IMG/VR virus record: IMGVR_UViG_2713896799_000003 | Coordinates: 1 to 14,665 of that record | Strand: one strand, 5' to 3' | DNA: 14,665 nucleotides | Source: a virus | Lineage: Duplodnaviria; Heunggongvirae; Uroviricota; Caudoviricetes | Notes under the pieces: generated by a model | The model's database searches: none | Seen by the model: only the letters and a program-made list of their open reading frames with translations | What the model was told of the DNA's origin: nothing | Part shown: piece by piece, positions 6,930-7,361 of the stretch | How positions within the stretch are numbered: position 1 is the stretch's first letter | Layout of the letters: the number at the start of each line of letters is the position of its first letter | Program-made: the position numbers and the translations under genes

Positions 6930-7361
6930 ATGTTTCTGAAAACAGAACAATTTGAATATAACGGCGTGTCCGTCACCCTTTCCGAACTGTCTGCGCTGCA
7001 GCGTATTGAGCATCTTGCCCTCCTGAAACGGCGGGCAGAAGAGGCTGAAGCCAGCGGCAACCTGCAGGTGAGCGTGGAAGACCTTGTCAGAACCGGGGCG
7101 TTTCTGGTGGCGATGTCCCTGTGGCATAACCATCCACAGAAAACGCAGTCACCGTCAATGAATGAGGCCGTGATGAAGATAGAGCAGGAAGTGCTCACCA
7201 CCTGGCCTGCTGATGCCATTGCCCGGGCGGAAGAAGTGGTGTTGTGCCTGTCCGGGATGAGTGAGCCTGTTCATGTGGATACGGATATCACCGAAGTGGC
7301 GAAAAATAATGCGCTTACTGATGATGATTTTTCTGCGGGAAAGTCTTCGACGGCGAGCTGA
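6930..7361 (+). CDS. G: Tail assembly chaperone G, 143 aa
   Basis: MFLKTEQFEYNGVSVTLSELSALQRIEHLALLKRRAEEAE...GAFLVAMSLWHNHPQKTQ is near-collinear with lambda gpG. Stop at 7359-7361, just after the slippery site. Confidence 0.9.
   Translation: MFLKTEQFEYNGVSVTLSELSALQRIEHLALLKRRAEEAEASGNLQVSVEDLVRTGAFLVAMSLWHNHPQKTQSPSMNEAVMKIEQEVLTTWPADAIARAEEVVLCLSGMSEPVHVDTDITEVAKNNALTDDDFSAGKSSTAS

What the first reader, a model, noticed from the sequence alone, without database searches (positions are those of the whole stretch)
7337..7343. Conserved programmed -1 frameshift producing GT
The exact heptamer GGGAAAG sits five codons before the G stop, with a 150-codon open -1 frame downstream. Unlike the other frame changes in this window, this one is expected to be biological, and it serves as a positive control for distinguishing programmed from accidental shifts.
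Basis: partly seen in the sequence, partly recalled or inferred. Interest (0 to 1): 0.4.

Follow-up and report, generated by a model that had tools for sequence, protein, structure and literature searches.

The report
Lambda-type G/GT tail chaperone frameshift site
This is the well-known slippery site at which a small share of ribosomes slip back one base to make the longer GT tail-assembly chaperone of lambda-like phages; it is real, conserved and ordinary.

Summary
GGGAAAG lies at 7337-7343 in the phase G_GGA_AAG of a 143-aa ORF (6930-7361, Pfam Phage_TAC_2). Five sense codons and TGA follow it. The -1 frame stays open for 151 codons to 7792 and carries Pfam Phage_tail_T. Gene order is Z-U-V-G-T-H, as in phage lambda.

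The heptamer count alone is not significant (3 found, 2.3 expected). The evidence is its phase, position and conservation:
- All 86 relatives with at least 66% G identity, lambda included, keep the same heptamer five codons before the stop.
- Among 59 distinct Enterobacterales orthologues (plus three Morganella loci with A_GAA_AAG) the site is always N_NNA_AAR, mostly G_GAA_AAG. None has a -1-frame start codon upstream of it.
- Conserved T-frame residues are encoded upstream of any possible start, partly inside G.

The roughly 35 other indel events in the window, about 30 of them frame-shifting, are absent from otherwise near-identical intact prophages.

A downstream stem is predicted but is only partly conserved, so that point is inconclusive. 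This is the textbook lambda G/GT frameshift: already known, low interest.

The parts
6930..7361 (+). Gene G: tail assembly chaperone, 143 aa, zero-frame product
   Evidence: ORF, translation, Pfam PF06894 Phage_TAC_2 at E 8.9e-51. RefSeq names orthologues 'phage tail assembly chaperone G'.
7337..7343 (+). Slippery heptamer G_GGA_AAG, the site of the -1 tandem slip (tRNA-Gly in the P site, tRNA-Lys in the A site)
   Evidence: Sequence and phase. Identical in lambda, phage 21 and all 86 relatives with at least 66% G identity. The position is N_NNA_AAR in all 59 distinct orthologues aligned and A_GAA_AAG in three Morganella loci read by eye.
7337..7792 (+). -1 frame 'T' extension. GT = join(6930..7343, 7343..7792), 287 aa
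   Evidence: Open -1 frame of 151 codons. Pfam PF06223 Phage_tail_T at E 1.1e-13. The fusion is 72% identical to lambda GT. There is no -1-frame start codon before +51 and no Shine-Dalgarno match.
7359..7361 (+). TGA stop of G, bypassed by shifted ribosomes
7351..7421 (+). Candidate downstream RNA domain. The closing stem pairs 7351-7358 with 7414-7421 and starts 7 nt after the heptamer; an inner hairpin lies at 7377-7412. Function not established.
   Evidence: MFE fold with z -1.7, and the same shape in lambda. It keeps 7-8 of 8 bp in 11 of 24 orthologue clusters, with GC/AU/CG at one pair, and is broken in the others. Overall 73% of cells are paired.
6160..6909 (+). Context: major tail tube gene V, upstream neighbour
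   Evidence: Pfam Phage_TTP_12 and Big_2.
7782..10154 (+). Context: tape measure gene H, downstream neighbour. The ATG at 7782 follows GGAGG and overlaps the T stop. In this window H is cut short by a 1-nt deletion near 10040.
   Evidence: Pfam TMP_2 and Tape_meas_lam_C. Relatives have an 870-aa H. The indel is listed.

Best explanation
This is the lambda-type programmed -1 ribosomal frameshift site of the tail assembly chaperone genes G and T. Most ribosomes translating G read GCG GGA AAG, continue for five codons and stop at TGA, giving the 143-aa gpG. A small share slip back one base while GGA is in the P site and AAG is in the A site. The tRNAs re-pair with GGG and AAA, and the ribosome continues in the -1 frame to 7792, giving a 287-aa GT fusion. 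In lambda the share is about 3-4%, for a G:GT ratio near 30:1; that figure is carried over by homology and was not measured here. By analogy with lambda, the G part binds the tape measure protein H and the T part recruits the tube protein V, so a fixed ratio of the two chaperones sets up tail tube assembly. Neither protein ends up in the virion. Shown here: the sequence, phase, frames, domains, synteny and conservation. Inferred: the slip itself, its efficiency and the protein functions.
For: (1) The heptamer is in the correct phase five codons before the stop, with a 151-codon -1 ORF. (2) Pfam finds Phage_TAC_2 in G and Phage_tail_T in the -1 frame, and the gene order is Z-U-V-G-T-H. (3) Lambda has the same heptamer at the same distance from the same TGA, and the GT fusion is 72% identical to lambda's. 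(4) Conservation: 86 of 86 relatives with at least 66% G identity keep GGGAAAG. Among 59 distinct orthologue sequences from many Enterobacterales genera, A4-A6 are invariant and position 7 is G in 56 of 59. In the window's own intact genes AAG is only 34% of Lys codons, which points to selection on the nucleotides rather than on the protein. (5) No orthologue has a -1-frame start codon upstream of the site. In about 20 of them the first start lies at +75, beyond the invariant LARE..R.DW block. (6) The two window-versus-lambda differences in the G/T overlap are silent in the T frame and change the amino acid in the G frame. (7) The phage 21 and LLS records annotate a joined GT CDS, and LLS annotates the slip site itself. 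(8) The literature gives G_GGA_AAG as the lambda G/GT site, a ratio of about 30:1 that is needed for tail assembly, dependence on tRNA-Lys mnm5s2U34, and high shift-proneness in E. coli without any stimulator (PMC5009743; PMC3296357; PMC7618472; PMC6815119).
Against: There are no expression or protein data for this copy. The window carries about 35 indel events that would inactivate terminase, the portal start, H, M, L, K, I and J if they are real, so this prophage may make no tails and the signal may be idle here. The heptamer count alone is at chance level. RefSeq/PGAP annotates T in relatives as a separate CDS starting at the equivalent of ATG 7388.
Confidence: 0.93

Rival explanations
1. 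T is a separate gene translated from its own start, ATG 7388, as RefSeq annotates it. The heptamer is then incidental.
For: ATG 7388 exists in the -1 frame, and PGAP annotates a 134-aa 'phage tail assembly protein T' from the equivalent codon in relatives. The Pfam T domain starts after that ATG.
Against: No Shine-Dalgarno motif lies 5-12 nt upstream of 7388. That codon is Phe in most orthologues (REFGRP), so the start is not conserved. The -1-frame residues upstream of it (E143, F146, L150, A151, R152, E153) are invariant in eight diverse sequences. In lambda, T is linked to G by frameshifting.
Confidence: 0.03
2. The G-to-T frame change is an accidental indel or sequencing error, like the others in the window, and splits what was once a single ORF.
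For: The window does contain many private indels.
Against: The same frame change is present in every relative examined: 80 viral contigs, about 15 annotated phages, about 75 species genomes and seven intact E. coli prophages. The 863-nt G-T stretch is found exactly in five public assemblies. No indel falls between 1000 and 10039 relative to the substitution-identical relatives L178-L182.
Confidence: 0.01
3. The signal is intact but biologically idle: this copy sits in a defective prophage, so no functional GT-dependent tail assembly takes place.
For: About 30 frame-disrupting indels hit terminase, the portal start, H, M, L, K, I and J relative to intact relatives.
Against: The first kilobase has 10 indels and 0 substitutions relative to L178-L182. 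That pattern fits sequence error better than natural decay. If the indels are errors, the prophage is as intact as its relatives. Either way the nature of the site is unchanged.
Confidence: 0.25
4. GT is made by transcriptional slippage: RNA polymerase adds or drops a base in the G/A run, and the ribosome does not slip.
For: The site contains short homopolymer runs (GGG, AAA). One orthologue has AAAAAAG.
Against: Runs of three bases are far shorter than those known to support polymerase slippage (established knowledge, reviewed in PMC5009743). In lambda the GT level responds to modification of the tRNA-Lys anticodon, which is a ribosomal effect.
Confidence: 0.01

Closest known systems
Bacteriophage lambda G/GT programmed -1 frameshift (Levin, Hendrix & Casjens 1993; Xu, Hendrix & Duda 2004, 2013, 2014)
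   Same: The heptamer G_GGA_AAG is identical, with the same five codons before a TGA stop. The position between V and H and the Pfam families for G and T are the same. The GT fusion is 72% identical, and the first six -1-frame residues after the slip are the same (VFDGEL). The predicted downstream fold is also alike.
   Different: There are only sequence-level differences: G is 66% identical over its full length and its C-terminal linker differs. This prophage carries a head module with a ClpP-protease/major-capsid fusion instead of lambda's C/Nu3/D/E genes.
N15/HK225/mEp043/Gifsy-type G/GT sites using G_GAA_AAG, and VT1-Sakai using A_AAA_AAG
   Same: They are orthologous G and T genes. The slip position is the same in the alignment, with an A_AAG A-site codon and a stop 0, 1 or 5 codons downstream.
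   Different: The P-site codon differs: GAA or AAA instead of GGA. GGAAAAG is not a canonical XXXYYYZ heptamer. T is shorter (about 120 codons) and has one copy of the C-terminal GGVR[YF]G motif rather than two.
E. coli dnaX -1 frameshift (A_AAA_AAG)
   Same: It is a -1 tandem slip with tRNA-Lys on A_AAG in the A site of an E. coli ribosome (established knowledge; PMC5009743).
   Different: By established knowledge, dnaX shifts at about 50% and depends on an upstream Shine-Dalgarno-like element and a strong downstream hairpin. Here no Shine-Dalgarno-like element is visible in the ~24 nt upstream of the heptamer (read by eye; no motif scan was run). The downstream stem is unproven, and the expected efficiency is a few per cent.

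Membership tests
Lambda-type G/GT tail assembly chaperone -1 frameshift (Xu et al. 2004 class) | Two overlapping ORFs lie between the major tail (tube) gene and the tape measure gene | tested here: met
   V 6160-6909, G 6930-7361, T frame to 7792, H from 7782.
Lambda-type G/GT tail assembly chaperone -1 frameshift (Xu et al. 2004 class) | The upstream ORF is a tail assembly chaperone of the gpG family | tested here: met
   PF06894 Phage_TAC_2, E 8.9e-51, 171 bits against a cutoff of 27.
Lambda-type G/GT tail assembly chaperone -1 frameshift (Xu et al. 2004 class) | The downstream ORF is in the -1 frame, belongs to the gpT family and lacks a conserved start or ribosome-binding site of its own | tested here: met
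   PF06223 at E 1.1e-13. There is no -1-frame start upstream of the site in 59 of 59 orthologues. The first ATG in the window is at +51, has no Shine-Dalgarno match and is not conserved.
Lambda-type G/GT tail assembly chaperone -1 frameshift (Xu et al. 2004 class) | A slippery heptamer lies in the X_XXY_YYZ phase within the overlap, near the end of the upstream ORF | tested here: met
   G_GGA_AAG at 7337-7343, five codons before TGA. The -1 frame is open from 7328.
Lambda-type G/GT tail assembly chaperone -1 frameshift (Xu et al. 2004 class) | The slip site and the two-frame arrangement are conserved in orthologues | tested here: met
   86 of 86 close relatives keep the site. All 59 distinct distant orthologues aligned have N_NNA_AAR at the same position, as do three Morganella loci (A_GAA_AAG) read by eye.
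Lambda-type G/GT tail assembly chaperone -1 frameshift (Xu et al. 2004 class) | Both G and GT proteins are produced, at a ratio of about 30:1 | not testable with these tools
   This needs a western blot, mass spectrometry or a reporter assay. It is known for lambda only.
Stimulator-dependent -1 PRF (dnaX / IS911 / viral pseudoknot type) | A conserved downstream hairpin or pseudoknot lies 5-9 nt after the heptamer | tested here: inconclusive
   A stem is predicted 7 nt downstream, with z only -1.7. Across orthologues 73% of cells are paired. The stem is kept in 11 of 24 clusters with some compensatory changes and broken in the others. No Rfam family matches.
Stimulator-dependent -1 PRF (dnaX / IS911 / viral pseudoknot type) | An upstream Shine-Dalgarno-like stimulator lies about 10 nt 5' of the heptamer | tested here: not met
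   The upstream sequence GATGATGATTTTTCTGC contains no GGAGG-like motif. This was read by eye; no scan was run.

The most novel reading that the evidence does not exclude
The lambda, N15 and mEp043 clades of G/GT sites may share a previously uncharacterised downstream RNA domain. Its closing stem pairs window 7351-7358 with 7414-7421 and starts 7 nt after the heptamer. It could tune frameshift efficiency, and therefore the G:GT ratio. The lambda site is usually treated as a bare slippery sequence.
Probability: 0.12. Interest if true: 0.35.

Novelty: already known. Interest (0 to 1): 0.08.

Why it matters
The finding adds nothing new about frameshifting. Its practical value is for annotation and quality control.

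- It is a valid internal positive control. A programmed frame change is shared by all orthologues and sits on a conserved slip site. The accidental ones in this window are private to it.
- RefSeq-style annotation of relatives lists G and T as separate CDSs. T is given an arbitrary, non-conserved ATG start, which misrepresents the real GT fusion product.

Tried and rejected
- **Motif enrichment.** GGGAAAG occurs at chance frequency, so it was rejected as evidence on its own.
- **Ribosome collision at the nearby UGA as stimulator.** Published reporter data put the collision peak at 8-10 codons between A sites. Here the spacing is 6, and orthologues have 1, 2 or 6, so this is unlikely.
- **Downstream structure.**
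  - The folds of the window and of lambda are alike but not significantly more stable than shuffles (z -1.7 and -1.55).
  - RNAalifold on 13 sequences and pair counting on 59 sequences gave partial, clade-restricted support only.
  - The structure was derived from the window itself and lies in strongly conserved coding sequence, so both controls are biased in its favour.
- **Rfam.** Only sub-threshold snoRNA noise.
- **PDB sequence search with GT.** Only spurious weak hits to designed repeat proteins, and no solved homologue.
- **Primary papers.** An attempt to read Xu et al. 2013 (PMC3762263) failed because it is not held. I therefore could not check from the primary papers whether lambda's downstream sequence was tested. 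My recollection that Levin et al. 1993 found no requirement for a downstream structure is from memory only.

Full report
**Observation**

The heptamer GGGAAAG is at 7337-7343 on the + strand. ORF 6930-7361 encodes 143 aa and ends ...GCG GGA AAG TCT TCG ACG GCG AGC TGA. The heptamer is therefore in the X_XXY_YYZ phase, with five sense codons before the TGA at 7359-7361.

From 7337 the -1 frame reads GGG AAA GTC TTC GAC... and stays open for 151 codons, to the TAA at 7790-7792.

The motif count itself is at chance level: 3 copies against 2.3 expected, and 81 of 200 shuffles do as well. Among the intact genes of the window there are five in-phase slippery heptamers. Only this one opens a long -1 ORF, 151 codons against 9-18 for the others.

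**What the genes are**

- Pfam assigns the zero-frame ORF to Phage_TAC_2, the lambda gpG family (E 8.9e-51).
- It assigns the -1 frame to Phage_tail_T (E 1.1e-13).
- The neighbours are Minor_tail_Z, Phage_tail_U, the lambda-type tube protein with a Big_2 domain, and a TMP_2/Tape_meas_lam_C tape measure protein. This is the lambda order Z-U-V-G-T-H.
- Annotated relatives agree.
- The conceptual GT fusion, join(6930..7343, 7343..7792), is 287 aa and 72% identical to lambda GT.

**Conservation**

- All 86 loci with at least 66% G identity carry GGGAAAG exactly five codons before the stop. They include lambda, HK630, phage 21, ev099 and 80 viral contigs.
- A scan of one genome per species returned orthologues from Escherichia, Enterobacter, Citrobacter, Kluyvera, Trabulsiella, Kosakonia, Phytobacter, Pantoea, Proteus, Providencia, Morganella and others.
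- In all of them the two-frame arrangement is kept and the aligned site is N_NNA_AAR.
  - The 59 distinct sequences are G_GAA_AAG in 47, G_GGA_AAG in 5 and G_GTA_AAG in 3.
  - G_GCA_AAA occurs in 2, and A_AAA_AAG and G_GGA_AAA in 1 each.
  - Three further Morganella loci have A_GAA_AAG.
- The three A's are invariant. The last base is G in 56 of 59, although AAG makes up only 34% of Lys codons in the window's intact genes. The surrounding G C-terminal linker varies in both length and sequence. This is selection on nucleotides, not on the protein.

**Evidence that the T frame is entered at the heptamer**

- No orthologue has an ATG, GTG or TTG in the -1 frame upstream of the site. In about 20 of them the first candidate start is at +75, beyond the invariant LARE..R.DW block.
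- In the window the first ATG is 7388 (+51). It has no Shine-Dalgarno match and corresponds to Phe in most orthologues.
- Conserved T-frame residues (E143, L144) are encoded inside the G ORF, upstream of the G stop.
- The two nucleotide differences between the window and lambda in the overlap are silent in the T frame and change the amino acid in the G frame: S to C and A to V.

**Mechanism**

The mechanism is inferred by orthology with lambda. With tRNA-Gly on GGA in the P site and tRNA-Lys (mnm5s2UUU) on AAG in the A site, both tRNAs re-pair one base back on GGG and AAA. The ribosome then continues in the T frame past the G stop.

The literature retrieved here supports each step for lambda:
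- G_GGA_AAG is the lambda G/GT site.
- The products are made at about 30:1, and that ratio is required for tail assembly.
- G binds the tape measure protein, the T domain recruits the tube protein, and neither is present in virions (PMC5009743).
- Under-modification of tRNA-Lys U34 raises the shift and lowers phage yield (PMC3296357; PMC7618472).
- G_GGA_AAG shifts readily in E. coli reporters without any stimulator (PMC6815119).

The same reporter study puts collision-stimulated shifting at 8-10 codons from a UGA. The 6-codon A-site spacing here, and 1-2 in many orthologues, therefore does not fit that mechanism.

**Downstream structure**

The 100 nt after the heptamer fold into a domain closed by an 8-bp stem, 7351-7358 with 7414-7421, that begins 7 nt after the heptamer. 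Lambda gives the same shape. Stability is not significantly above shuffles: z is -1.7 for the window and -1.55 for lambda.

Across 59 orthologues 73% of cells pair. The closing stem keeps 7-8 of 8 pairs in 11 of 24 sequence clusters, with GC, AU and CG at one pair whose 3' partner is a synonymous site. It is largely broken in the Kosakonia/Phytobacter, Pantoea and Proteus/Providencia clusters.

The structure was derived from the window itself and lies in highly conserved coding sequence, so this remains inconclusive. No Rfam family matches.

**The other frame changes**

Compared with intact prophages (E. coli N96 and 55989, and five assemblies that encode the identical G protein), the window has about 35 indel events. 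About 30 of them are not multiples of three.
- Ten lie at 274-988 and 25 at 10039-14632. None lies between 1000 and 10039 relative to L178-L182; N96 alone shows one intergenic 1-nt difference at 4480.
- If real, they would break terminase, the start of the portal gene, H, M, L, K, I and J.
- All are private to the window.
- In the first kilobase there are 10 indels and no substitutions relative to L178-L182. This looks like sequence error, or very recent damage, rather than old decay.
- The 863-nt G-T stretch is found exactly in five public assemblies.

The programmed shift is universal among relatives and sits on a conserved slip site. The accidental ones are unique to this copy.

**Verdict**

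This is the textbook lambda G/GT -1 frameshift in a lambdoid prophage of an Escherichia-type genome. It is real, it meets every sequence-level criterion of the class, and it is already known. What remains untested is actual GT production from this copy and any role for the downstream stem.

Noticed in passing
window 274-988 and 10039-14632: About 35 small indel events, mostly 1-nt deletions, are private to the window relative to seven intact relatives. The first kilobase has 10 indels and 0 substitutions against L178-L182. The central 9 kb has none against those five relatives. If real, they break terminase, the portal start, H, M, L, K, I and J. The pattern suggests sequence error or very recent damage rather than old pseudogenisation.
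   Followed up: partly
window 8861-8867 (+), inside tape measure gene H: There is a second G_GGA_AAG in the correct slippery phase. A -1 shift here would end after 15 codons and give a truncated H. It is present in three close relatives, which are too similar to show selection.
   Followed up: partly
window 7351-7421: A predicted RNA domain starts 7 nt after the heptamer. It is shared with lambda and kept, with some compensatory changes, in 11 of 24 orthologue clusters, but is broken in the others.
   Followed up: yes
window 7388-7792; L095 7696-8100; L176 7492-7896: RefSeq/PGAP annotates T in relatives as a stand-alone 134-aa CDS from a non-conserved ATG with no Shine-Dalgarno match, instead of a joined GT CDS. 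Only some phage records (phage 21, LLS) annotate the fusion.
   Followed up: yes
window 7610-7789 (T C-terminus): The lambda-type T ends with two copies of a motif, (D/E)D.LM..A.G..GGVR[FY]G. The N15, mEp043 and Gifsy-type T proteins have one copy and are about 30 aa shorter.
   Followed up: no
orthologue loci L087-L094, L116-L175: Most Enterobacterales orthologues use G_GAA_AAG, which is not a canonical XXXYYYZ heptamer because the P-site GAA would re-pair with GGA. The G stop lies 0, 1 or 5 codons after the site, depending on the clade.
   Followed up: partly
L098-L115 (genome contigs): G/T sequences indistinguishable from lambda's in these comparisons sit on short, low-coverage contigs in assemblies of unrelated organisms such as Neobacillus, Kitasatospora, Shewanella, Leeuwenhoekiella and Enterococcus. 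This is almost certainly lambda DNA contamination of those assemblies.
   Followed up: no
L141 (Shigella flexneri CP182557.1) 1201-1290: The G orthologue is truncated after about 30 codons. This is a genuinely decayed copy, for comparison.
   Followed up: no
window 2449-4427: The head module encodes a ClpP-like prohead protease fused to the major capsid protein (659 aa in relatives), not lambda's separate C/Nu3/D/E genes. The prophage is therefore a mosaic with a lambda-type tail.
   Followed up: no
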